Counted from the stretch's first letter, positions 4,047 through 15,001 are shown. The stretch is 32,000 bases of DNA from Candidatus Heimdallarchaeota archaeon B3_Heim (GCA_003144275.1 NJBF01000010.1:1-32000); one strand, 5' to 3'. Made by a program: numbers and translations. Notes: generated by a model from the letters alone, not told the origin.

Positions 4047-5903
4047 ATGATTGAAGAACATAGCCACAAATCAACAGGACTTCGTGGTGTTGAGGTTGCG
4101 GACACAAATATTTGCCTGATTGAAGGAGATAAAGGAAATCTTTTCATCCGAGGTTATGATATCAAAGATTTAGCAAAGAATTCAACTTACGAAGAAGTAG
4201 TATACTTACTTCTTTTTGGAAATTTACCTTCTTTTGATCAACTGAAATCTCTTCAAAACACAATTAGGTCAAATCAAGATCTACCTGCGGAATTGATTAC
4301 TCATCTACAGAAAACCACAAAAAATACGCCTTCGATGAGTGTACTTCAGTCATCCCTAGCCCTCTTAGCTGGTTATGATACTGAAGTTGAAAAAGAAACA
4401 AAAGAATCTAATCGCAATATTGCTATTAGGATTATTTCTCTATTACCTATAATTGTTACAGCATGGGAACGAATTAGGAATAATAAAGAACCAATATCTC
4501 CCAATAAGAATCTTTCTTATGCGGCGAATTTCCTGTATATGCTAAATGGAGAAATGCCAACAAAAGAAGAGGCGAGAATATTTGATGTATCGCTAATACT
4601 TCATGCCGAGCATTCTTTCAATGCATCGACATTTACTGCCAGAGTAATCGCCTCCACAGGAGCCGATCTCTATGCTTCAATTTCAGGAGCAATTGGTTCA
4701 TTATCTGGGAAATATCATGGAGGGGCGAATCATCTTGTTTATGAAAGTCTTTTAGAAATAAAAAAGATGTCAAATATTGAAGAATGGGTAAAGAACCGTT
4801 TTGATGATGGTAAACGAGTTATGGGAATGGGTCATGCAATTTATAAGACAATGGATCCGAGAGCTAAGATTCTAAAGGAAATGGCTTCAGAATTGGTGAA
4901 AAAACAAGGTGGATTAGCTCAATGGATGTATGATACAACAAATAAGATGGTTGAAATAACTCAAGCTGAATTTAAAAAACGGAAAAATAGGAGTATATAT
5001 CCAAATGTAGATTTGTACGGTGCTACAGTTTATACAAGTCTTAATATTCCTGTAGAGCTTTTCACTCCAATTTTTACTACGTCTAGAGTAGCTGGATGGG
5101 CTGCACATATTTTAGAAGAGAAATATCCAGAAACACCCACCGTTAAACCTGTGATTTATCGGCCTTCAGCTGACTACATAGGGAGATATTGTGGACCTTT
5201 AGGCTGTGAATTCACACCAATAACTCAGAGAAATGCAACAGCTAATGATAATAACTTAATAAGAAGATTAATTACTCAGGAACTCACTAAAATTCTCGAT
5301 GGTCATTTAATCCCAGTTTCATTATCTGCACGACATATTCATTTGAAGAAAGACGATTTTCATAGACTTTTTGGAGAAAAAAGTGATTTACATCCAATTA
5401 ATTCCTTGTCACAACCAAAAGAATTTGCTTGCGAAGAGGTAGTTGATCTAATTGGTCCAAAACGAGCAATCTATGGAGTTAGAGTCCTGGGTCCTTTCAG
5501 AAATGAAACTCAAATCGAAATTTCTCGTAGTGATGGATATGTTCTAGGAATCAATCCACCCACACGTCAATCAGGTGACTTGGAGGGGACTCCTGGAATT
5601 CATGTCATCGGACCGAAAGGAGCAATCAATTTAGAAAAGGGAGTTATATGCGCCGCACGACACATTCATATGTCACCAAAGGAAGCACAGAAACTAAACA
5701 TGTCTGATAAGCAAATGGTTGCGATTAAATTTTCTGGAACACGTGCTGGTATATTAGATGAAGCTATGACTAGAGTTCATCCTGATTACACTTTGGAACT
5801 ACATTTAGATCTAGATGAGGGTAATGCCCTCGCATTGAAAACAGGAGATATGGGAACGATCATTTCAGATTTTGAAAAGGAGTCATATTCCCCGTTCAGG
5901 TGA
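4047..5903 (+). CDS. citrate (or 2-methylcitrate) synthase fused to PduL-type phosphate acyltransferase
   Basis: N-part: GLRGV, HAEHSFNASTFTARV, HGGAN, GMGHAIYK..DPRA, PNVD, SRVAGWAAH. C-part from about 5310: IPVSLSARHIHL, LSQPKEF, TQIEISRSD, SGDLEGTPG, ARHIHM, HLDLDEGNA. Confidence 0.92.
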   Translation: MIEEHSHKSTGLRGVEVADTNICLIEGDKGNLFIRGYDIKDLAKNSTYEEVVYLLLFGNLPSFDQLKSLQNTIRSNQDLPAELITHLQKTTKNTPSMSVLQSSLALLAGYDTEVEKETKESNRNIAIRIISLLPIIVTAWERIRNNKEPISPNKNLSYAANFLYMLNGEMPTKEEARIFDVSLILHAEHSFNASTFTARVIASTGADLYASISGAIGSLSGKYHGGANHLVYESLLEIKKMSNIEEWVKNRFDDGKRVMGMGHAIYKTMDPRAKILKEMASELVKKQGGLAQWMYDTTNKMVEITQAEFKKRKNRSIYPNVDLYGATVYTSLNIPVELFTPIFTTSRVAGWAAHILEEKYPETPTVKPVIYRPSADYIGRYCGPLGCEFTPITQRNATANDNNLIRRLITQELTKILDGHLIPVSLSARHIHLKKDDFHRLFGEKSDLHPINSLSQPKEFACEEVVDLIGPKRAIYGVRVLGPFRNETQIEISRSDGYVLGINPPTRQSGDLEGTPGIHVIGPKGAINLEKGVICAARHIHMSPKEAQKLNMSDKQMVAIKFSGTRAGILDEAMTRVHPDYTLELHLDLDEGNALALKTGDMGTIISDFEKESYSPFR

Positions 5904-5907
5904 TATT

Positions 5908-6219
5908 ATGGATGCCTTAGGTTTCATGGAAACATGCGGTCGTATTGGAGCAATTATAGCCACGGACACGGCATTGAAAGCAGCGGATGTGAATTTAATA
6001 TCATTAAAACGAGTTTCTGGTGGTTTAGTCATAGTGATCATTGAAGGAGAAGTCGCTGCGGTTCACGAAGCAATCAGCGCAGCAAAAAATCAATTACGTC
6101 AAATTTCCTGTGGATTACTAACCAATGTTATTCCACGGCCAGATGAAGTGACAGTTGAACTCATTGAAAAATTCAGAATGCGTACCCCAAGTGTAAAGGA
6201 AGATCCTGGTAGAGATTGA
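5908..6219 (+). CDS. BMC-H shell hexamer protein
   Basis: MDALGFMETCG...DTALKAADV...EGEVAAV...VIPRP; start moved from 5872 to ATG 5908, which has AGGTGA at 5898-5903. Confidence 0.92.
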   Translation: MDALGFMETCGRIGAIIATDTALKAADVNLISLKRVSGGLVIVIIEGEVAAVHEAISAAKNQLRQISCGLLTNVIPRPDEVTVELIEKFRMRTPSVKEDPGRD

Positions 6220-6229
6220 CTAGAAGGTA

Positions 6230-6955
6230 ATGGTTATGGAAGAGAAAGAACTCGAATCACTTGTCACACAACAAGTAAGGAGCGCTCTCGGTAGTAACCA
6301 GAAACTAGGCCCCTATAATGTATTGGGTATTTTAACACATATGGGTCAAGGGTTGGAAGATTTATTTGAAGCTCTTATCAGGTTAGCTCAAAAAAACATG
6401 AATATTCTGATATGGACTAAAAAAGAAGTTAATGAAGCTTTGGAACTCACATCACGAGCCAGTTCAATTCCTACTATGGATATTATTGTCAATTCAACTG
6501 GAGATTTCTGTTTAAGCTTTTATAATGATCTCGAATCTATCATGTATGGTGCTTTTAGTTTTGAAATCGCAAACAAAGTTACTCTTTTAGAAGATTCGAA
6601 TTCAACTGTTAATTTATTACTCCAAGGATTATTATCTAAAATTCCAGTCTATATAGTTACACCATTTCCTCCAACAGATTTAACATTTGATTATGGTCCC
6701 TCAGGCATGCTAACGAATGAATTAAGTAAACGATTGTCTTTTCTAATAGAAATGGGATTTAGATTGGTTAATGTTGAAGATTTAGCTGATCAATTTGTGA
6801 AGCATACACCAGCTGTGCCAAATTTAATAACAGAAGACTATTTGGAAGGTTTAAAAGGAAAAAAACACGAAATATTTGTACCACATTCTACAATCATAAC
6901 ACCCTTAGCCCAAGAAAGGGCCAATACTCTTGATATTAAAATTATAAAGATTTAG
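6230..6955 (+). CDS. BMC-associated flavoprotein-like protein with N-terminal encapsulation peptide
   Basis: N-terminal amphipathic ELESLVTQQVRSAL; degenerate HFCD/flavoprotein-like core (IANKVTLL...LLQGLLSKIPVYIV); C-terminal LITED...IITPLAQERANTLDIKI motif of the kind seen in BMC-locus accessory proteins. Confidence 0.6.
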   Translation: MVMEEKELESLVTQQVRSALGSNQKLGPYNVLGILTHMGQGLEDLFEALIRLAQKNMNILIWTKKEVNEALELTSRASSIPTMDIIVNSTGDFCLSFYNDLESIMYGAFSFEIANKVTLLEDSNSTVNLLLQGLLSKIPVYIVTPFPPTDLTFDYGPSGMLTNELSKRLSFLIEMGFRLVNVEDLADQFVKHTPAVPNLITEDYLEGLKGKKHEIFVPHSTIITPLAQERANTLDIKIIKI

Positions 6956-6966
6956 GTGATAAAAAC

Positions 6967-7257
6967 ATGAAAGTATGTAAAGTCATTGGAAATGTAGTAA
7001 GCACTGAGAAAGATGAAGGGATTAAAGGTTTCAAACTCCTTATTGTCGAACCAGTGGATATGGTCGATCTGAAACCTGAGAGTGCTCCATTTGTAGCAAT
7101 CGATGCAGTAGGCGCGGGAGAGGATGAAGTTGTCTTAGTTGTTACTGGGAGTTCTTCTCGTTTAACTGCAATGACAAAAGATCGTCCAACTGATGCAACT
7201 ATTCAAGCAATAATTGATTTTATTCAAATAAAAGGAAAAGAAACGTATAGAAAATAA
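6967..7257 (+). CDS. BMC-P shell pentamer (EutN/CcmL family)
   Basis: MKVCKVIGNVVSTEK, AIDAVGAGEDEVVLVVTGSSSR, DATIQAIID; SD AGGTGA at 6954-6959. Confidence 0.95.
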   Translation: MKVCKVIGNVVSTEKDEGIKGFKLLIVEPVDMVDLKPESAPFVAIDAVGAGEDEVVLVVTGSSSRLTAMTKDRPTDATIQAIIDFIQIKGKETYRK

Positions 7258-7307
7258 TATTTTAAGTAATTCAATTAATATAATCTCATATAAGCGAAGG
7301 TAATTAA

Positions 7308-8735
7308 ATGACATATGATGAACAACAAATTGCCAAGATTGTCAATACTGTTGTGCAAAAAATACGCGCATACCAAGTCTATTCAGGTTTAGAAGATCTC
7401 CCCGCGATTGCTGGGGGAGGTATCTTTCAGGATATAGAACAAGCGATTGAAGCGGCAGAGAATAGTCAAATTACGCTAATGGCTCTCTCACTTGAAGAAC
7501 GTAAAGAGATTATTCAATCAATGCGCGAAACAGCGATTAAGCACTCTCGCTATCTAGCTGAATTAGCAATTCAAGAAACTAATCTTGGTCGATTAGAAGA
7601 TAAAGTTGCAAAAAATCTATTATGTGCACGTAAAACCCCAGGCCTAGAAGATTTGGTACCAAACACGTGGACAGGAGATAAGGGATTGACTCTTGTAGAG
7701 ATGGCTCCATACGGTGTAATTGGCTCCATAACACCCTCTACAAATCCAACTGCTACAGTAATCAATAATGGAATATCAATAGTCACGGCTGGAAATAGTG
7801 TCGTTTTTAATCCTCATCCTTCAGCGAAACGAGCAAGTAATGAAGCGGTTAGGTTATTAAATAGGGCTATTCTTGAAGCTGGAGGTCCAGAAAACGTACT
7901 AACATCAACAGTTTCTCCTTCAATAAAATCAGCTCAAATTCTTATGAAACATAAGAAGATACGGTGTCTTGTTGTGACGGGTGGAAGCGCAGTAGTAAAG
8001 GCCGCAATGCAATCTGGTAAGAAAGCAATATGTGCAGGGCCGGGAAATCCTCCTGTAATAGTTGATGATACTGCAGATATTCAAAAAGCCGCAAGAGGCA
8101 TAGTAGAGGGAGCAAGTTTTGATAACAACATTGTTTGTCTCGTAGAAAAAGAAGTTTTCGCATTTGATTCCATTACTGATCGGTTGAAAAGCGAAATGAA
8201 GCATTATGGTGCATATGAAATAACTGGAGATCAGATAAAACAATTGGAAAATCTTGTCTTCACAGGGAAAAAGGGAAGATTTCCAATTGTTAATAGGGAT
8301 TTCATAGGTAAGGATGCAAAAGTTCTTCTTGAGGGAATAGGCATTCAGGTTGGTGACAATATACGACTAATTATTGCAGAAGTTCCTGATGACGAGCATC
8401 CCTTTGTAATATCAGAAATGCTAATGCCTGTTTTACCAATAGTACGAGTCAAAACAATAGAAGAAGCTTTACAAAAAGCGAAAAAGGCAGAACATGGATT
8501 TAAGCATACAGCTATGATGTGGAGTGATTCTGTAGGAAATATGAGTCTTGTGGCAAAAAATATTGAAACAACAATTTTTGTGAAAAATGCTCCTTCGCTT
8601 GCAGGGATCGGTTTTGGAGGAGAGGGGTATACTACAATGACGATAGCTGGTCCTACAGGTGAAGGACTTACATCGGCAAAAACATTTACACGTCAGAGAA
8701 GATGTGTGCTTGTAGACGCGTTTAGAATAATTTAG
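7308..8735 (+). CDS. CoA-acylating aldehyde dehydrogenase (EutE/PduP family) with N-terminal encapsulation peptide
   Basis: PYGVIGSITPSTNP, GNSVVFNPHP, VTGG, AGPGNPP, FDNNIVCLVEKE (catalytic Cys), EMLMPVLP, IAGPTGEGLTSAKTFTRQRRC. Confidence 0.95.
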   Translation: MTYDEQQIAKIVNTVVQKIRAYQVYSGLEDLPAIAGGGIFQDIEQAIEAAENSQITLMALSLEERKEIIQSMRETAIKHSRYLAELAIQETNLGRLEDKVAKNLLCARKTPGLEDLVPNTWTGDKGLTLVEMAPYGVIGSITPSTNPTATVINNGISIVTAGNSVVFNPHPSAKRASNEAVRLLNRAILEAGGPENVLTSTVSPSIKSAQILMKHKKIRCLVVTGGSAVVKAAMQSGKKAICAGPGNPPVIVDDTADIQKAARGIVEGASFDNNIVCLVEKEVFAFDSITDRLKSEMKHYGAYEITGDQIKQLENLVFTGKKGRFPIVNRDFIGKDAKVLLEGIGIQVGDNIRLIIAEVPDDEHPFVISEMLMPVLPIVRVKTIEEALQKAKKAEHGFKHTAMMWSDSVGNMSLVAKNIETTIFVKNAPSLAGIGFGGEGYTTMTIAGPTGEGLTSAKTFTRQRRCVLVDAFRII

Positions 8736-8759
8736 GATAATGAAAAGAGGCAGACTTAG

Positions 8760-10085
8760 TTGAGTTCTGATATCGCAGAGATGGCACGCAGTTCCGGTAT
8801 AGTCGGAGCAGGTGGAGCTGGTTTTCCTACCCATGTGAAACTTTCTGCGAAGGTAGATACTTACATTGTCAATGCGGCTGAATGTGAACCTCTCTTAAGA
8901 GTTGATCAACAATTAATGCAGAAATATCCAGAAAAGTTGATAACTGGATTACAACTAGGGATGAAAGCCACAGGGGCAAAAAGAGGTATCATTGCTATAA
9001 AAAGAAAATATAAGTCTGCAATTAAAAAGGTAAAGCAAGCTATCAAAACTGATTCGCGTCTAGAGATTTTTCTATTAGAGGATGTATATCCTGCTGGAGA
9101 TGAGCACGTTCTCGTTTATGAAGCTTTAGGAAAGACAATTCCTGAAAGTGGACTTCCTCTCGATATAGGGGCTGTGGTGAATAATGTTTATACATTAATA
9201 AATCTTGCTGATGCCTCTGAAGGAAAATCGATAGTTTCACGATATGTTACTGTCACAGGTGCAGTAAAAAAACCTGTAACTATGGATTTCCCAATTGGTA
9301 CCTCGATCTTGGATACTATCAAAGCAGCAGGTGGAGCAACGATCGATAATTTTGAAGTATTGATTAATGGACCAATGATGGGAAGTCTTATTGACCCTAA
9401 AAAGCCTATAACAAAGTTAACTTCAGGAGTAATCGTTTTACCAGAGGATCATTTTGTTATTCGAATGAAAAATGAACGTATCTCCTCAAAGGTCATTGTT
9501 ACCAAGGCAGCTTGCATACGCTGCCAGTTGTGCACAGAAGTATGCCCACGATTTCTCCTAGGTCATCAATTATATCCCGATAAGGTCATGCGAGGGATTG
9601 CATGGGGAGCTCCAGAGAGACCCGAGTATATGACAGGAACATTCCTCTGTGTGGAATGTGGTGCATGTACATATTATGGCTGTCCCATGGGCTTAGATCC
9701 TTGTAAAATGATGACAGAAGTCAAAGGTCAGTTGAGAGTAGAGGGATTAAAAAATACTCATAATCGAAAAGTCTTATCGATTCATCCTGAGAGGGAATAT
9801 CGAAAACTACCTGTAAAGAGATTAATGTCTAGGTTGGATTTACTCAATTATGACAATGAGTGTCCAATTCGAAAGCGGAAATTACAGATTCGAGAAGTTT
9901 CAATACCTCTCAAACAACATATCGGTGATCCTGCTATTCCCATCGTGAAGGTAGGAGAAACGGTAAAAAAAGGCGTACTCATTGGAAAGATTCCTGATGG
10001 GTCACTTGGCGCGGTAATTCACGCTAGTATAAGTGGAATTATCCGACATATTGGACAAGAAATTGTCATTGAAAAAACAAAATAA
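8760..10085 (+). CDS. pduS: PduS/RnfC-like flavin, 2x[4Fe-4S] oxidoreductase
   Basis: [72 protein letters not shown]; TTG start. Confidence 0.88.
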
Positions 10086-10110
10086 GAAACATACAAATGG
10101 TGAAATAAAA

Positions 10111-10389
10111 ATGGCTAAAGAAGCACTTGGATTAATAGAAACAAAAGGATTAGTTGCGTCTATTGAAGCAGCTGATGCAATGGTGAAAGCTGCGAACGTT
10201 CATTTATTGGGACGTGAAGTTATTGGAGGCGGTTATGTCACTGTGATGGTTAGAGGTGATGTAGGTGCAGTTAAAGCTTCCGTTGAAGCTGGTGCAGTTG
10301 CTGCGCGAAAAATTGGTGAGTTAGCTTCAGCACATGTAATCCCCCGTCCTCATGATGAAGTCGAGAGCATTCTTCCCAAGAAAGGATGA
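10111..10389 (+). CDS. BMC-H shell hexamer protein (PduA/EutM-like, probable major shell protein)
   Basis: [27 protein letters not shown]...[15 protein letters not shown]...HVIPRPH; start moved from 10033 to ATG 10111, which has GGTGA at 10099-10103. Confidence 0.97.
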
Positions 10390-10396
10390 GTGTAAG

Positions 10397-10421
10397 ATTA
10401 GCTGCAGAACGAGCAGCTAAT
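10397..10421 (+). promoter_or_regulatory. intergenic stem-loop after the BMC-H gene
   Basis: ATTAGCTGC-agaacga-GCAGCTAAT, perfect 9-bp stem, no following U-tract. Confidence 0.4.
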
Positions 10422-10466
10422 ATTCACTACTTTCATCTCTGTTAACAATCTTAGAGGTAAAATCAG

Positions 10467-11012
10467 ATGCGTGCAATAGGAGTTCTAGAAACAAATGTAA
10501 TAGCTCGTGGTATATTGAGTGCAGATACAATAGTCAAAACTGCAGATGTAAAGCTATTATTTGCATCACCAGTATGCCCTGGGAAATATCTCATAATTAT
10601 TCAAGGAGCCGTTGCAGCTGTTAAAAGCTCCTTACTTGCTGGAAGTGAAATTGCTGGAGAAACACTAGTAAATTATACAGTAATACCAAATATTCATCCA
10701 GAAGTCTTTCCAGCAATTGCAGGGTCAACTGGTATCGATAAAGTGGGGGCAATAGGAGTGGTTGAAACTTATTCTGCTCCAACAGCTATTATGGTTGGCG
10801 ATGAGGCTGTTAAAAGTGCACAAGTACGACTAATCGAAATTCGGATGAGTCGTGCCATAGGTGGAAAGGCTTTCGTAGTCTTAACAGGAGAAGTCGGTGC
10901 AGTGCGAGCAGCTGTAGATGCTGGTGTTAATCGCGTAAAAGGTGAAGGATTAATATTATCTATGGCAATAATTCCCGCTCCTCATCCAGATTTAGTAAAA
11001 ACTCTCCTATAA
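10467..11012 (+). CDS. pduT: BMC-T tandem-domain shell protein, PduT-like
   Basis: Two BMC domains (AIGVLET...GAVAAV; GAIGVVET...GEVGAV...IPAPH); VCPGKY with Cys37 matching the PduT Fe-S-binding Cys. Confidence 0.9.
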   Translation: MRAIGVLETNVIARGILSADTIVKTADVKLLFASPVCPGKYLIIIQGAVAAVKSSLLAGSEIAGETLVNYTVIPNIHPEVFPAIAGSTGIDKVGAIGVVETYSAPTAIMVGDEAVKSAQVRLIEIRMSRAIGGKAFVVLTGEVGAVRAAVDAGVNRVKGEGLILSMAIIPAPHPDLVKTLL

Positions 11013-11038
11013 AAATAGTTTAAACAAGCTGAAGTCAG

Positions 11039-11497
11039 ATGAAGAAAATAATAATTGGATCCGATCATGGTGGGTTTCATCTTAAGAATGATTTAATGAA
11101 ATTTCTTAAAGGTTTGGGATACGAAGTTTCAGATTATGGGTGCTATTCTACAGACCCTGTTGATTATCCTGACATCGCTTTATTAGTAGCACAAACAGTA
11201 GCTGTCTCGTTGGAATCTTTTGGAATTCTTATTGATGGAACAGGTGTTGCTAGTGCAATTGTGGCAAATAAAATCAAAGGTATAAGAGCAACTCCGTGTA
11301 CTGACGAATTTACTGCCAATTCTGCTCGCGAACATAATAATTCCAATATCCTAACTTTAGGGGCTAGAGTTATTGGTCCTGGGATAGCGCAGAATATTGT
11401 GAAGATTTGGTTAACTACTCACTTTGGTGGGGGAAGACATGAAACAAGAGTGAATAAAATTACTGAGATTGAATTGAAATATCTAAAATCAGCGTGA
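11039..11497 (+). CDS. rpiB: RpiB/LacAB-family sugar-phosphate isomerase
   Basis: GSDHGG, VDYPD, ANKIKGIRA, AREHNNSNILTLGARVIG, FGGGRH; canonical CGTG is DGTG here. Confidence 0.9.
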   Translation: MKKIIIGSDHGGFHLKNDLMKFLKGLGYEVSDYGCYSTDPVDYPDIALLVAQTVAVSLESFGILIDGTGVASAIVANKIKGIRATPCTDEFTANSAREHNNSNILTLGARVIGPGIAQNIVKIWLTTHFGGGRHETRVNKITEIELKYLKSA

Positions 11498-11501
11498 TCT
11501 T

Positions 11502-12056
11502 ATGAAACTTGGTAAAGTAATAGGAAATGTAGTTGCTACAACAAAAGACCCGGGTCTCAATACTTTAAGGCTTTTAGTGGTTCAAGGTTTAGACGATAAC
11601 CTACAACCTCTTGGAAATCCATATGTTGCAGCAGACGGAATTGAAACAGCTGGTCCAGGAGATATCGTCTATGTTGTCAGTAAAAAAGAAGCGGCAATTG
11701 TATTTCCAAAAGAACTAGTTCCAATCGATGAGTGTATTGTCGGATATGTAGAGGAATATTACGTTACGAAAAGCGCAAAACGGAAGCCACAGAAGATACA
11801 AACGAGGAAATCACCTCCACCAACAATTAAACCTCTTGACGAAATTCCCGAAATAAAATCTGACGAAATTCCAGTAGAAACTACGGCCAAACCTATCCCT
11901 AAAACTAAGATAATACCAACAGAAGTAGAAGAGATAACGAAACCAATACCTAAATCAAGGACTAGAACAAAACCTAGATCAAAAGCAACTAGGACAAAAA
12001 AGACAAGAAAAATTAAAGAAAAACAACCTACTTCAAAAGGAAGTGAATCAGAATGA
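11502..12056 (+). CDS. BMC-P shell pentamer with 96-aa Lys/Arg/Pro-rich C-terminal tail
   Basis: MKLGKVIGNVVATTK...AADGIETAGPGDIV...IDECIVGYVE (residues 1-88), then a low-complexity tail. Confidence 0.9.
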   Translation: MKLGKVIGNVVATTKDPGLNTLRLLVVQGLDDNLQPLGNPYVAADGIETAGPGDIVYVVSKKEAAIVFPKELVPIDECIVGYVEEYYVTKSAKRKPQKIQTRKSPPPTIKPLDEIPEIKSDEIPVETTAKPIPKTKIIPTEVEEITKPIPKSRTRTKPRSKATRTKKTRKIKEKQPTSKGSESE

Positions 12057-12340
12057 TTCTTGCTAAGGTTATCGGCAATGTTGTCGCTCCGGTAAAGACT
12101 AGAAGTCATGAAAATGGAAAAATTTTGGTAGTCCGTCCGATAGATATGAAAGGACAATTTACTGAACCATCATTTATCGCGATAGATGTAGCAAGAGCTG
12201 GTATAGGGGATTGTGTTCTCATTATTCGAGAAGGAAATTCTATTCGGAATATAATGAAAGATAATCAAGCAGCAGTCGATGCGTTGATAATAGGTGTTGT
12301 TGATTACGTCCAAGTAGACGGTAAGAATAGTGAATTATAA
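12053..12340 (+). CDS. BMC-P shell pentamer (EutN/CcmL family)
   Basis: MILAKVIGNVV, AIDVARAGIGDCVLIIREG, VDALIIGVVD; ATGA overlap with the previous stop. Confidence 0.93.
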   Translation: MILAKVIGNVVAPVKTRSHENGKILVVRPIDMKGQFTEPSFIAIDVARAGIGDCVLIIREGNSIRNIMKDNQAAVDALIIGVVDYVQVDGKNSEL

Positions 12341-12363
12341 ATAGATAAGTGAAGGTGTAGGAA

Positions 12364-13812
12364 ATGAGTAATGAGATGATTCAAAAAATAACTGAAGAAG
12401 TGATGAGAAAATTAAATCAAGAGGATCTCTCCCCGGTCAAACAAACCAATCTAAATATACAGTCTTCCAAGAAGAATCTTAATTATACCATTTCATCTGG
12501 AAAATCAGCATTAATTTTACTTTGTGGAGGAAATAAAGAAATACAGGAAGTCATGCGACAAATCGAAATCATATCTAAAGCGTATACACATACTTACGTC
12601 GTTATGACACATGCAGCAATAAAATTAATCGGGATACCCGATATTAGAAAAGTCTCCGAAGGAGCAACAATTATCACAGAATTTTCTGAAGAGTATTTTG
12701 ACGATATTTTGGGACGGGTTGATGTTATTTATGTACCTATACTATCCTTAAATACAGCAGCAAAAGTTGCACTGTTAAATGCTGATTCTCTAGGAACTAT
12801 TACACTAGTTTTTGGTTTAATGTACGGAAAACCTGTAATTGCTGCTCATAATTCCATTTACTGCTGTCAAATTGAAAAAGAACAAGTACCACCTATTATG
12901 ATTCGACGTATTGAAGGAATTATTGATCAGTTGACATCAATGGGAATAACTATGGTAAATATCCATAGTTTATCAGACCAACAACCTTCCCCTTATACTC
13001 CAACAACACCTGAGCGCTCATATACGGTTGGAACTGCAGGAAAAGATATTGGCTTAGATGGAAAATCACAAGTTGCTGTCAAAGCATTAGTCAATGGAGG
13101 AGCAGCAAGAATAACTTCGGAGACTGGAATCAATGGTTATGACATGGACCTAGCTCAATATATTGATCATACTAATTTACGAGCAGATGCAACAGAGGAT
13201 GAAATTAAGCAGTTGTGTGAAGAAGCAGCTAATTACAAATTTGCGTCAGTTTGTATAAATCCCACAAATGTTTCAAAAGCTGCTAAAATTTTGAAGGGTA
13301 GTTCGGTAAAAGTCTGTACTGTTATAGGTTTTCCTTTAGGTGCGACAACCCCAACTGTTAAGGCAATAGAAACCCGTGATGCAGTAGCAAATGGTGCTGA
13401 GGAGGTAGATATGGTTATTAATGTTGGAGCGTTGAAGTCGGGAAATGACGATCTCGTGCGCGAGGATATCGAAGCCGTTGTAAATGCTGCTGCTGGGAAG
13501 GCAATTGTTAAAGTTATCCTTGAAACTGCTCTATTAACAAAAGAACAAATCGTTAAAGGTAGCTTATTCACAAAATTGAGCGGGGCCGACTTTGTAAAAA
13601 CCTCAACAGGGTTTAGTACAGCAGGAGCTTTAGTCGAGGATATAGCTCTCATGCGAAAGACTGTGGGGCCAGAAATGGGAATAAAGGCTGCTGGAGGGAT
13701 TAGAACACATGAAATTGCAGAAGACATGATTAAAGCAGGCGCAACTCGAATTGGAGCTTCTGCCTCGATAGCTATTGTTAAAGAGACTGATACGAAGTCA
13801 GGTAAGTACTAG
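12364..13812 (+). CDS. deoC: encapsulation peptide + flavoprotein-like domain fused to deoxyribose-phosphate aldolase
   Basis: N: [13 protein letters not shown]; middle: [13 protein letters not shown]...GKPVIAA; C: [55 protein letters not shown]. Confidence 0.93.
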
Positions 13813-13822
13813 AGGGTATTGG

Positions 13823-15001
13823 TTGATTATCCTAACCATTAATTCAGGTTCTTCATCTCTAAAATATTCAATTTACCAAATGGAGAATCGTAAAATTTTA
13901 GCAAAAGGATTAGTGGAAAGAATAGGTCTCTCCAATCCTCATATTTCTCATAATAGCGAAGCTAAAGAGATTAAGGAACAGATAAAGTGTAATAACCATG
14001 AAGATGCCATAAGTTATGTATTAAACTTCTTTAATTTACACGAAGTTGATGCAGTGGCGCATAGGGTAGTACATGGAGGAGAAAGATTTCAGAAAGAGGT
14101 AATCATTGACACAAAGGTTGAATCTGAAATAGAAAACCTTTCTGAATTGGCCCCACTTCATAATCCCGCAAATCTAATAGGAATTCGAGCTTGTCAAAAA
14201 ATGCTTCCAGATATTCCACATGTAGCAATATTTGATACATCTTTTCATAATACTATTCCAGAGTATGCTTTTCGTTATGCAATCCCAGCAAAATGGCATA
14301 TAGAAAAATCCTTTAGAAGATATGGTTTTCATGGTACTTCCGTTGAATTTGTAACAAGTAGAACTATTGAAATTCTAGGATTGGAGAATAGTCGACGGAT
14401 AATTGTATTACATCTTGGAAATGGAGCATCAATAACTGCTGTGCGCAATGGTGAGTCTATTGATACAAGCATGGGCTTAACTCCTCTCGAAGGCCTTATT
14501 ATGGGGACACGTTCAGGGGATATCGATCCAGGTCTTATACTTGCTATGATGCGATCACAGAAAATGTCAGTCGACCAAATAGATCAAGAACTCAACACTA
14601 AGAGTGGCTTGCTAGGAATAACTGGTAAATTCAGAGATATGAGGGAGATTCAGATTAATGCCCAAGAAGGAAACTCTGCAGCACAATTAGCAATCCAGAT
14701 GGCAGTTTATCGGATACAAAAATATATTGGTGCATATTTTGTCGCCTTGGGTGGTCTAGATGCCATTGTATTTACAGGGGGAATAGGGGAAAGGTCTTCT
14801 TATTTCCGAAATTCTATCGTCAAAGGATTAGGGAGTCTGGGTATACTACTAGATCATTCTAAAAATAAAACTTCAGATGGAGAGGAAGAAGAAATAATTT
14901 CTTCTTTAGAATCTAAAACTCAAGTATTAGTAATTCCAACTAATGAAGAATATATGATGGCCTTAAAAACTCTGAAATTGTTGGCAATAGAGAGTAAGTA
15001 A
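13823..15001 (+). CDS. ackA: acetate/propionate kinase
   Basis: INSGSSSLKY, HRVVHGG, APLHNP, FDTSFH, RRYGFHGTS, HLGNGAS, TSMGLTPLEG, FTGGIGE, IPTNEE; start placed at TTG 13823 after GAGGGT. Confidence 0.95.
   Translation: MIILTINSGSSSLKYSIYQMENRKILAKGLVERIGLSNPHISHNSEAKEIKEQIKCNNHEDAISYVLNFFNLHEVDAVAHRVVHGGERFQKEVIIDTKVESEIENLSELAPLHNPANLIGIRACQKMLPDIPHVAIFDTSFHNTIPEYAFRYAIPAKWHIEKSFRRYGFHGTSVEFVTSRTIEILGLENSRRIIVLHLGNGASITAVRNGESIDTSMGLTPLEGLIMGTRSGDIDPGLILAMMRSQKMSVDQIDQELNTKSGLLGITGKFRDMREIQINAQEGNSAAQLAIQMAVYRIQKYIGAYFVALGGLDAIVFTGGIGERSSYFRNSIVKGLGSLGILLDHSKNKTSDGEEEEIISSLESKTQVLVIPTNEEYMMALKTLKLLAIESK

What the first reader, a model, noticed from the sequence alone, without database searches (positions are those of the whole stretch)
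11766..12056. Shell pentamer with a 96-aa basic, Pro-rich disordered tail (histone-H1-like); possible nucleic-acid-binding vertex
Seen: after an 88-aa BMC-P domain comes a tail with 27 K/R, 12 D/E and 14 Pro (hand count). It contains repeats KPIPK x2 and DEIP x2, and a 22-aa block KSRTRTKPRSKATRTKKTRKIK with 12 basic and no acidic residues. Established: BMC-P proteins are normally about 90-100 aa. Inference: five tails per vertex form a polycationic brush that could tether the organelle to DNA/RNA or membrane, capture polyanionic substrate (fits a deoxyribose-catabolic organelle), or drive condensation or positioning.
Basis: partly seen in the sequence, partly recalled or inferred. Interest (0 to 1): 0.78.

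Follow-up and report, generated by a model that had tools for sequence, protein, structure and literature searches.

The report
Asgard microcompartment vertex protein, basic tail

Summary
ORF 11502-12056 (+) is a 184-aa BMC-P (PF03319, residues 1-83).

The tail is not a frameshift artefact. Seventy-eight relatives carry tails of 31-138 aa; 76 are net positive (median +17). Tail dN/dS is 0.15-0.30 against 0.02 for the fold. All 8 P2 orthologues found in held genomes of the order are extended.

The window is a Hodarchaeales sugar-phosphate (DERA/RpiB) microcompartment operon, and the gene is "AMC-P2". Du et al. (bioRxiv Nov 2025, PMC12747264) already report this K/R-rich disordered region in 58 of 66 such operons. 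They show that an orthologue's tail co-purifies with DNA and RNA from E. coli. Novelty is therefore "already known".

Added here:
- The tail has a conserved layout: a basic collar, a variable and often acidic or repeat-based spacer, and a C-terminal basic block.
- Nearly all bacterial counterparts lack a tail, but short Arg-rich tails do occur (Eisenbacteria), which qualifies the preprint's "not observed in BMCs".
- "Histone-H1-like" holds for charge only.

The physiological role remains open between DNA capture as food, a nucleoid tether and other polyanion binding. The scan had not recorded this tail on other DNA.

The parts
11502..11765 (+). BMC-P (EutN/CcmL) beta-barrel domain of AMC-P2, residues 1-88, acidic (pI 4.4, charge about -5.5)
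   Evidence: PF03319 at 75.1 bits. AF2 with a 132-sequence alignment gives pLDDT 92-98 with strands E2-10, E24-30, E41-45, E55-60 and E77-82. Sequence matches to solved pentamers 4i7a, 2hd3 and 5v74. dN/dS is about 0.02. pI.
11766..11822 (+). Juxta-domain basic collar, residues 89-107 (TKSAKRKPQKIQTRKSPPP); the x-K-x-A-K-K-K plus PPPT motif is the only tail segment that aligns across clades
   Evidence: Alignment A1. The first 15 tail residues are net positive in 78 of 78 tails, median +6.
11823..11951 (+). Central Pro/Ile/Glu/Thr spacer, residues 108-150, about neutral, holding the DEIP x2 and KPIPK x2 short duplications
   Evidence: Charge windows run from -4 to +2. The homologous segment is the most variable part and is replaced by tandem repeats in other lineages.
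11952..12017 (+). C-terminal polybasic block, residues 151-172 (12 K/R, no acidic residue; net +11 per 20 aa), with a weak 12-nt periodicity
   Evidence: The last 25 tail residues are net positive in 72 of 78 homologues.
12018..12056 (+). Short mixed or acidic end (EKQPTSKGSESE) and stop codon; the stop overlaps the start of the next BMC-P gene (ATGA)
   Evidence: Sequence. The SE(S/T)E terminus is conserved in the closest clade.
12053..12340 (+). AMC-P3, a tail-less BMC-P of 95 aa, translationally coupled to P2
   Evidence: PF03319 at 77 bits. A 4-nt overlap with P2. The P2-P3 pair is conserved in bacterial and archaeal loci.
6967..7257 (+). AMC-P1, a tail-less BMC-P of 96 aa
   Evidence: PF03319 at 99.8 bits. 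The genome's only three BMC-P genes are P1, P2 and P3.
4047..15001 (+). The surrounding sugar-phosphate microcompartment operon: CS+PTAC fusion, BMC-H, 241-aa protein with no Pfam match, P1, AldDH, PduS-like NADH dehydrogenase, BMC-H, BMC-T, RpiB, P2, P3, flavoprotein-DERA, acetate kinase
   Evidence: Pfam scans. Gaps between genes run from -38 to +77 nt. The content matches the 'type I AMC' described in PMC12747264.

Best explanation
ORF 11502-12056 encodes AMC-P2, one of three vertex pentamer paralogues of the Hodarchaeales sugar-phosphate (deoxyribose-5-phosphate) microcompartment.

Shown here: residues 1-88 form the standard BMC-P barrel. Residues 89-184 are an intrinsically disordered, net +15 appendage. 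It has three parts: a basic collar next to the fold, a flexible Pro-rich near-neutral spacer, and a polybasic block near the end.

Inferred: the C-terminus of BMC-P is accessible on the outside of assembled shells, so the tails should project into the cytosol from vertices that contain P2. There they would act as non-specific electrostatic tethers for polyanions, chiefly DNA and RNA. This binding was shown for an orthologue, not for this protein.

My preferred reading of the purpose is also an inference. The tail physically couples the organelle to nucleic acid, meaning the nucleoid or RNA-rich cytoplasm. This would keep shells spaced, non-aggregated and inherited, and only secondarily place them near nucleic-acid breakdown. 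Selection appears to act on charge, proline content and disorder rather than on exact sequence.
For: Domain and tail anatomy:
- Anatomy.
- Disorder: the tail sits on the disordered side of the charge-hydropathy plot, unlike the domain, P1 and P3. AF2 with a deep alignment gives no secondary structure beyond residue 92, with pLDDT 63-75 against 92-98 for the fold.

The tail is real and selected:
- 78 homologous tails are 31-138 aa long. 76 of 78 are net positive, with median K/R 33%, Pro 14% and hydrophobic 13%.
- Tail dN/dS is 0.15-0.30 against about 0.02 for the fold.
- 8 of 8 P2 orthologues in held genomes of the order have open frames of 140-196 aa.
- Comparable segments are rare in this proteome, 5 of 3,325 ORFs.

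Outside orientation:
- C-terminal Strep tags on BMC-P pull down whole shells (PMC10853475; PMC6056538).
- Du et al. purified archaeal shells through C-terminally tagged P1.

Nucleic-acid binding: full-length P2 and the isolated tail of an orthologue, but not tail-less P2, carry DNA and RNA out of E. coli. P2 was also found in shells assembled in vivo (PMC12747264).

For the tether reading:
- Bacterial SPU-type P2 counterparts run the same chemistry but lack the tail. Among 77 bacterial loci the proteins are 85-124 aa, and only one has a short basic tail. The tail therefore tracks the archaeal host rather than the pathway.
- Single-protein nucleoid tethers with basic, H1-like tails position PHB and polyphosphate granules: PhaM, PhaF and AlgP (PMC13052382).
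Against: - No experiment exists on this protein or in a native Hodarchaeales cell.
- Co-purification of nucleic acid with a +15 tail from E. coli lysate is expected for any polycation. It does not identify the physiological ligand.
- The number of tails per shell is unknown. There are three paralogues, and P1 alone caps shells in vitro.
- AF2 tail pLDDT of 63-75 is low but not the very low value typical of strong disorder calls. The first AF2 run, with a shallow alignment, was uninformative.
- dS is saturated (above 1), so the dN/dS values are approximate.
- A few tails are neutral or acidic overall: P0041 is -1, and the type-II-like P0082 is -2.
- Du et al. favour a different purpose, capture of DNA as a nutrient.
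Confidence: 0.65

Rival explanations
1. Nutrient DNA capture (the published reading). The tails grab cytosolic, imported DNA at the shell surface. Its breakdown then feeds deoxyribose-5-phosphate directly into the organelle.
For: - An orthologue's tail binds DNA and RNA (PMC12747264).
- The operon's signature enzyme is DERA, with RpiB.
- SPU compartments are thought to catabolise DNA breakdown products (PMC11585597; PMC8217296).
- Du et al. report that Hodarchaeales lack de novo purine synthesis.
Against: - Bacterial SPU compartments perform the same catabolism, yet their P2 counterparts lack the tail.
- The shell takes up a small sugar phosphate, not DNA. No nuclease, phosphorylase or mutase is encoded in the operon or known to be recruited by the tail. 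Without them, holding DNA at a vertex gives little kinetic gain, because small products diffuse away (physical inference).
- Inside a cell the dominant DNA is the cell's own chromosome, and the dominant polyanion is RNA.
- Binding was equally seen for RNA.
Confidence: 0.2
2. The tail is not chiefly a nucleic-acid binder. It may be an electrostatic device for other anionic targets: archaeal membrane lipids (docking the electron-exporting shell near the respiratory chain), polyphosphate, anionic metabolites, or acidic client proteins. Alternatively it is a blocky polyampholyte that drives shell-shell clustering or condensation.
For: - The plus/neutral-or-acidic/plus block pattern recurs across clades.
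- The operon's PduS-like NADH dehydrogenase and BMC-T are proposed to export electrons to cytosolic or membrane acceptors.
- AlgP's H1-like tail is associated with polyphosphate granules.
- Du et al. found that AckA and RpiB bind shells without recognisable encapsulation peptides.
Against: - No direct evidence exists for any of these ligands.
- The other shell proteins are near neutral (pI 6.5-7.9), so there is no obvious acidic facet for the tails to bridge.
- Nucleic-acid binding is the only activity actually observed.
Confidence: 0.12
3. The tail is an annotation or assembly artefact, or a neutral low-complexity run-on with no function.
For: - Low-complexity, repeat-prone sequence.
- One pair of near-identical orthologues differs by a 7-nt indel that switches the reading frame of the repeat array, and both frames stay open.
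- An antisense ORF is open across the tail.
Against: - The frame, length class, composition, basic collar and the ATGA overlap with the next gene are conserved in many independent assemblies.
- Tail dN/dS is well below 1.
- An orthologue's protein was expressed and purified at full length.
- Independent metagenome contigs that cover parts of the tail show no indels.
Confidence: 0.03

Closest known systems
AMC-P2 with K/R-rich IDR of Hodarchaeales archaeal microcompartments (Du et al., bioRxiv Nov 2025, PMC12747264)
   Same: Same protein family, same operon position (RpiB-P2-P3-DERA), same host order, and the same kind of tail. The preprint reports 36-137 aa tails in 58 of 66 operons; this tail is 96 aa. 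The operon has the same 'type I' content, including the CS+PTAC and flavoprotein+DERA fusions.
   Different: - The tested orthologue comes from another genome (GCA_003144275); this copy is untested.
- The preprint describes the tail only as K/R-rich. The collar/spacer/basic-block layout, the selection estimate and the repeat or frameshift turnover are added here.
- The preprint states that the fusion is 'not observed in BMCs'. Here a bacterial (Eisenbacteria) P2-position BMC-P with a 36-aa Arg-rich tail was found, along with a metagenomic one ending PPKRRRR.
Canonical bacterial BMC-P vertex proteins (EutN, CcmL, CsoS4, PduN, HO BMC-P; PF03319), including the 'BMC-P triplet' of SPU/HO loci (Sutter et al. 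2021, PMC8217296)
   Same: Same fold and same role as vertex cap. The same triplet of paralogues is present, with an adjacent, translationally coupled P2-P3 pair.
   Different: Bacterial proteins are 85-111 aa with at most a few extra residues. The catalogue notes long extensions for BMC-H but not for BMC-P.
Nucleoid tethers with histone-H1-like basic tails: PhaM, PhaF (PHB granules) and AlgP (polyphosphate granules)
   Same: One polypeptide joins an organelle-binding part to a basic, disordered, non-specifically DNA-binding C-terminal tail. Loss of these proteins gives fewer, larger or aggregated granules (PMC13052382). This is the closest working analogy.
   Different: - No homology.
- Those tails are Ala/Lys/Pro repeat arrays. 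This one is poor in Ala, has Ile, Thr and acidic residues, and has a block layout.
- Here the organelle-binding part is itself a structural shell subunit.
McdA/McdB carboxysome positioning system
   Same: It couples a protein-shelled microcompartment to the nucleoid. McdB is largely disordered and binds the shell (PMC6328274, PMC8359340; abstracts seen).
   Different: - It is a two-component, ATP-driven ParA-type system.
- The DNA binder (McdA) is a folded ATPase, not a tail on a shell protein.
- I did not search for a ParA partner of this operon.

Membership tests
BMC-P / EutN-CcmL (PF03319) | Sequence match to the family model above the curated cut-off | tested here: met
   75.1 bits against a cut-off of 25, residues 1-83 covering model positions 1-82 of 83.
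BMC-P / EutN-CcmL (PF03319) | Small beta-barrel fold like solved pentamers | tested here: met
   The AF2 domain has pLDDT 92-98 with five strands. phmmer matches to 4i7a, 2hd3, 5v74 and 2qw7 at E 2e-8 to 3e-7 over residues 1-89. No structural superposition was run.
BMC-P / EutN-CcmL (PF03319) | Encoded in a locus with BMC-H/BMC-T shell genes and cargo enzymes | tested here: met
   Two BMC-H, one tandem-domain BMC-T, AldDH, PTAC, DERA and RpiB lie in one co-oriented operon.
BMC-P / EutN-CcmL (PF03319) | Forms pentamers that occupy shell vertices | not testable with these tools
   Du et al. detected the orthologous P2 by mass spectrometry in shells purified from E. coli. Stoichiometry and homo- versus hetero-pentamers are unknown.
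Hodarchaeales AMC-P2-IDR (Du et al. 2025) | Second BMC-P of the operon, between RpiB and P3/DERA | tested here: met
   Gene order. The same order occurs in orthologous loci.
Hodarchaeales AMC-P2-IDR (Du et al. 2025) | C-terminal K/R-rich intrinsically disordered region of 36-137 aa | tested here: met
   96 aa, 28% K/R, net +15. Disorder indicators.
Hodarchaeales AMC-P2-IDR (Du et al. 2025) | Host is a Hodarchaeales (Asgard) archaeon | tested here: met
   Every homologue of 47% identity or more that carries a source name is Hodarchaeales, Hodarchaeota, Heimdallarchaeota or Promethearchaeota. The closest species-representative contigs are titled Candidatus Hodarchaeota. Same-genus and same-order genomes carry orthologues.
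Hodarchaeales AMC-P2-IDR (Du et al. 2025) | Tail-dependent DNA/RNA binding | not testable with these tools
   Reported for the GCA_003144275 orthologue only.
Histone H1 C-terminal-domain-like tails (eukaryotic H1; bacterial AlgP, PhaF, PhaM) | Composition dominated by Lys, Ala and Pro, with few acidic or hydrophobic residues | tested here: not met
   Ala 3 of 96, Ile 11 of 96, D+E 12 of 96, Thr 14 of 96. The H1 composition it is compared with is from my own knowledge.
Histone H1 C-terminal-domain-like tails (eukaryotic H1; bacterial AlgP, PhaF, PhaM) | Tandem arrays of short K/A/P repeats, or a match to a linker-histone-type family model | tested here: not met
   Only two 4-5-aa duplicates and one weak 12-nt x3.4 repeat. 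No Pfam family matches the tail at E <= 5.

The most novel reading that the evidence does not exclude
After a bacterial microcompartment operon entered the Hodarchaeales lineage, one vertex paralogue acquired a built-in nucleoid/RNA tether. It consists of a basic collar, an extensible spacer and a polybasic hook. This tether replaces the separate ParA-type positioning systems of bacteria and governs the spacing and inheritance of the organelle in the closest archaeal relatives of eukaryotes. The S/T-rich basic block might be switched by phosphorylation. This would be the first shell-encoded positioning device in any microcompartment, and a role distinct from the published 'DNA as food' reading.
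Probability: 0.25. Interest if true: 0.7.

Novelty: already known. Interest (0 to 1): 0.3.

Why it matters
Microcompartments in Asgard archaea bear on how the archaeal ancestors of eukaryotes organised metabolism. A shell subunit that carries its own nucleic-acid-binding tail is an unusual way of linking a protein organelle to the rest of the cell.

The feature and its nucleic-acid binding are already in the literature, so this window adds one more confirmed example and no discovery. The remaining open question is what the tail is for. Bacterial organelles with the same chemistry lack it, which suggests a role tied to the archaeal host cell rather than to DNA catabolism. That is testable now that an AMC-bearing strain (SC1) is in culture. 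The tail is also a natural example of exterior functionalisation of BMC vertices, which is of interest for shell engineering.

Tried and rejected
- **First AF2 run.** With a 30-sequence alignment of close relatives the mean pLDDT was 50.6 and even the barrel was poorly modelled, so it was uninformative. It was replaced by a 132-sequence run.
- **Expression evidence.** No RNA holder was listed for the P2 region. The runs found are DNA contigs from cold-seep and marine-sediment metagenomes with small word shares. I draw no habitat or expression claim from them.
- **Laying contigs of four runs.** They covered only parts of the tail (11743-11832 and 11981-12126) at low depth, with no indels. The middle of the tail was not covered.
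- **Taxon of the closest tail-less relative.** I tried to identify the source of P0081 (58% identity, 99 aa, same gene order) through species-representative genomes. Only more distant Bacillaceae and other bacteria came back, so its source stays unknown.
- **Source of the 115-aa Arg-tailed protein P0136.** Same attempt, same outcome. P0139 could not be located at all.
- **Myxococcota donor lineages.** I did not find P2 proteins from the lineages named by Du et al. (B64-G9, HGW-17), so I could not check whether they have tails.
- **Frameshift artefact.** Considered and rejected (see rivals).
- **Antisense ORF 11759..12157 as a gene.** Considered and rejected. It has no homologue evidence and is the mirror of an AAA/AAG-rich coding stretch.
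- **Complex prediction.** Not used. No specific protein partner is implied, and pentamers exceed the tool's copy limit.

Full report
**1. What is there**

The ORF at 11502..12056 (+) encodes 184 aa. Pfam EutN_CcmL (PF03319) matches residues 1-83 at 75.1 bits against a cut-off of 25.

- 27 K/R, 12 D/E and 14 Pro;
- KPIPK at residues 130 and 147;
- DEIP at residues 113 and 121;
- a 22-aa block at 151-172 with 12 basic and no acidic residues.

The folded part is acidic (pI 4.4, about -5.5), and the tail is strongly basic (pI 10.4, about +14.4).

Sliding charge windows divide the tail into four parts:
- a basic collar next to the fold (TKSAKRKPQKIQTRK, +7);
- a Pro/Ile/Glu/Thr spacer that is neutral to slightly negative;
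- a polybasic block (+11 per 20 aa);
- a short mixed or acidic end.

The stop codon overlaps the start of the next BMC-P gene (ATGA), and the preceding RpiB gene ends 4 nt upstream.

**2. Context**

The gene lies in a 13-gene co-oriented operon at 4047-15001. The gene order is:
- citrate synthase fused to PTAC;
- BMC-H;
- a 241-aa protein with no Pfam match;
- BMC-P1;
- acylating aldehyde dehydrogenase;
- a PduS-like FMN/Fe-S NADH dehydrogenase;
- BMC-H;
- tandem-domain BMC-T;
- RpiB;
- P2 (this gene);
- P3;
- a DeoC-type aldolase with an N-terminal extra domain;
- acetate kinase.

This is a sugar-phosphate-utilising (SPU-type) microcompartment. The genome's only three BMC-P genes are in this operon.

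**3. Whose genome**

All named homologues of the full-length protein come from Hodarchaeales, Hodarchaeota, Heimdallarchaeota or Promethearchaeota MAGs. The closest species-representative contigs are titled Candidatus Hodarchaeota. Earlier notes of this scan on the same window also record archaeal and Asgard markers around the operon. I did not re-test those markers.

**4. Is the tail real and conserved?**

A search of the 5.8-billion-protein collection returned 79 homologues of 119-227 aa. All have a highly conserved barrel followed by a fast-evolving basic, Pro-rich tail.

For 78 tails of 30 aa or more:
- length is 31-138 aa (median 77);
- net charge has median +17, and 76 of 78 are positive;
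- K/R median is 33%, Pro 14%, S/T 18% and hydrophobic 13%;
- the first 15 residues are net positive in all 78;
- the last 25 residues are net positive in 72.

Only the collar (x-K-x-A-K-K-K, often followed by PPPT) aligns across clades. The middle is replaced in different lineages by unrelated tandem repeats, such as EIPSEEIE, KPKPSSVP/PEAQPEPSPI, PKVEIEK and ISSTR.

Among the four closest genes, Nei-Gojobori dN/dS is 0.15-0.30 for the tail and about 0.02 for the barrel. Synonymous sites are saturated, so these ratios are rough. They do show purifying selection on a translated tail.

In the held genomes of the same order, 8 of 24 have a P2 orthologue. All 8 have open frames of 140-196 aa.

Such segments are rare in this proteome: 5 of 3,325 ORFs of 100 aa or more. 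A frameshift or run-on artefact is therefore excluded for this gene.

**5. Disorder and orientation**

The tail falls on the disordered side of the charge-hydropathy boundary. The barrel, P1 and P3 fall on the folded side.

AF2 with a 132-sequence alignment models the barrel at pLDDT 92-98. It gives no secondary structure after residue 92, with pLDDT 63-75. A first run with a shallow alignment was uninformative.

Solved BMC-P chains are 95-111 aa and align only to residues 1-89.

C-terminal Strep tags on BMC-P are used to pull down whole assembled shells (PMC10853475; PMC6056538). Du et al. purified the archaeal shells through C-terminally tagged P1. The C-terminus is therefore accessible from outside. 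An exterior location for this tail is inferred from that, not shown.

**6. Already published**

Du et al. (bioRxiv, Nov 2025; PMC12747264) describe 'archaeal microcompartments' in 66 of 111 Hodarchaeales genomes. [quoted passage not shown]

Their 'type I' operon matches this window. It has 2 H, 1 Ts and 3 P genes, the CS+PTAC fusion and the flavoprotein+DERA fusion.

For an orthologue from GCA_003144275, full-length P2 and the isolated tail, but not tail-less P2, co-purified with DNA and RNA from E. coli. P2 was also present in shells assembled in vivo.

They interpret the tail as a device for capturing cytosolic DNA as a nutrient.

(a) The tail has a conserved block layout (collar, spacer, basic block), not just K/R enrichment.

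(b) Bacterial counterparts were examined in 77 loci from many phyla, at 33-48% identity. Most have the same adjacent P2-P3 pair. The proteins are 85-124 aa and have no long tail. The nearest tail-less relative (58% identity, 99 aa) sits in an operon with the same TPI-RpiB-P2-P3-DERA order.

(c) The preprint's statement that such fusions are 'not observed in BMCs' needs softening:
- A Candidatus Eisenbacteria contig encodes a 124-aa BMC-P in the same T-P2-P3-aldolase arrangement. Its 36-aa tail has 10 K/R and 2 D/E and ends RRRRARAQGKRR.
- A metagenomic locus encodes a 115-aa BMC-P ending PPKRRRR.
- Among 144 more distant representatives, about half a dozen have short net-basic tails.
These tails are short and sporadic, so the long tail is still essentially a Hodarchaeales trait.

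(d) A type-II-like operon has a 61-aa Pro-rich tail with net charge -2. Another archaeal contig keeps only a tailed P2, P3 and DeoC.

(e) 'Histone-H1-like' is only a charge analogy. The tail has 3% Ala, 11% Ile and 12.5% acidic residues, no K/A/P repeat array, and no Pfam match even at E <= 5.

**8. Mechanism**

Shown: a BMC-P fold; a conserved, selected, basic and disordered tail; and, for an orthologue, tail-dependent nucleic-acid binding together with incorporation into shells.

Inferred: exterior exposure, and non-specific electrostatic binding of cellular polyanions.

The purpose is open. I rank a tether to nucleic acid (nucleoid or RNA-rich cytoplasm) for spacing and inheritance above nutrient capture, for three reasons:
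- Bacterial SPU compartments run the same chemistry without the tail. The tail therefore tracks the archaeal host rather than the pathway.
- The shell imports a small sugar phosphate, and no nuclease, phosphorylase or mutase is encoded in the operon. Holding DNA at a vertex should add little flux (physical inference).
- PhaM, PhaF and AlgP are precedents for organelle-bound proteins with basic DNA-binding tails that space granules on the nucleoid (PMC13052382).

Neither reading has been tested in a native cell. Other polyanions (membrane lipids, polyphosphate, acidic clients) and condensation remain possible. The other shell proteins are near neutral, which does not favour tail-to-facet bridging.

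**9. Verdict**

- Observation: confirmed.
- Interpretation: partly supported.
- Feature: real and interesting, but already described together with its nucleic-acid binding.
- Novelty: 'already known'.
- Interest: low to moderate. It rests on the unresolved purpose of the tail and on the small corrections above.
- The scan's index holds no earlier record of this tail on other DNA.

Noticed in passing
L129:1001-1560 versus L130:1031-1580 (orthologous P2 genes, proteins P0030 and P0054): The two genes are 99% identical and differ by a 7-nt indel just before a 15-nt repeat array of 7-8 copies. The array is therefore read as ISSTR repeats (basic) in one and PPPES repeats (acidic) in the other. Both frames stay open. 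Only the ISSTR version keeps the ATGA overlap with P3. This is either an assembly error or a natural frame-switch variant of the tail.
   Followed up: partly
L008:636-1010 (Candidatus Eisenbacteria contig WJJG01000062.1): A bacterial BMC-P of 124 aa with a 36-aa Arg-rich tail (10 K/R, 2 D/E). It sits in a BMC-T, P, P, class-II-aldolase arrangement, and its stop overlaps the next BMC-P start. It is a bacterial precedent for a basic tail on the P2-position pentamer.
   Followed up: partly
L098:8001-8450 (JGI metagenome contig, protein P0082): A type-II-like operon (three BMC-H, TPI, class II aldolase, separate citrate synthase) whose P2 has a 61-aa Pro-rich tail that is not net basic (12 K/R, 14 D/E). 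A large TnpB/Cas12f-like gene follows the operon. The host taxon was not determined.
   Followed up: no
L084:8001-10034 (GCA_016840025.1, JAEOTF010000506.1): An archaeal contig that carries only a tailed P2 (147 aa, tail +10), P3 and a DeoC gene. A LAGLIDADG gene precedes them, and no other shell or core genes lie within 8 kb. It may be a remnant or satellite of the operon.
   Followed up: no
window 11759-12157 (- strand): A 132-aa antisense ORF is open across the whole tail. It is the hydrophobic mirror image (F/L/V/I-rich) of the Lys/Thr/Pro-rich coding strand. No evidence suggests it is a gene.
   Followed up: partly
window 4047-5903 and 12364-13812: Citrate synthase is fused to PTAC in one 618-aa ORF. 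The DeoC aldolase carries an N-terminal region of about 260 aa with no Pfam match. Both fusions are mentioned by Du et al. as typical of these archaeal operons.
   Followed up: no
window 8760-10085: The PduS-like NADH dehydrogenase is by far the most basic enzyme of the operon (pI 9.3, about +17), whereas the shell proteins are near neutral.
   Followed up: no
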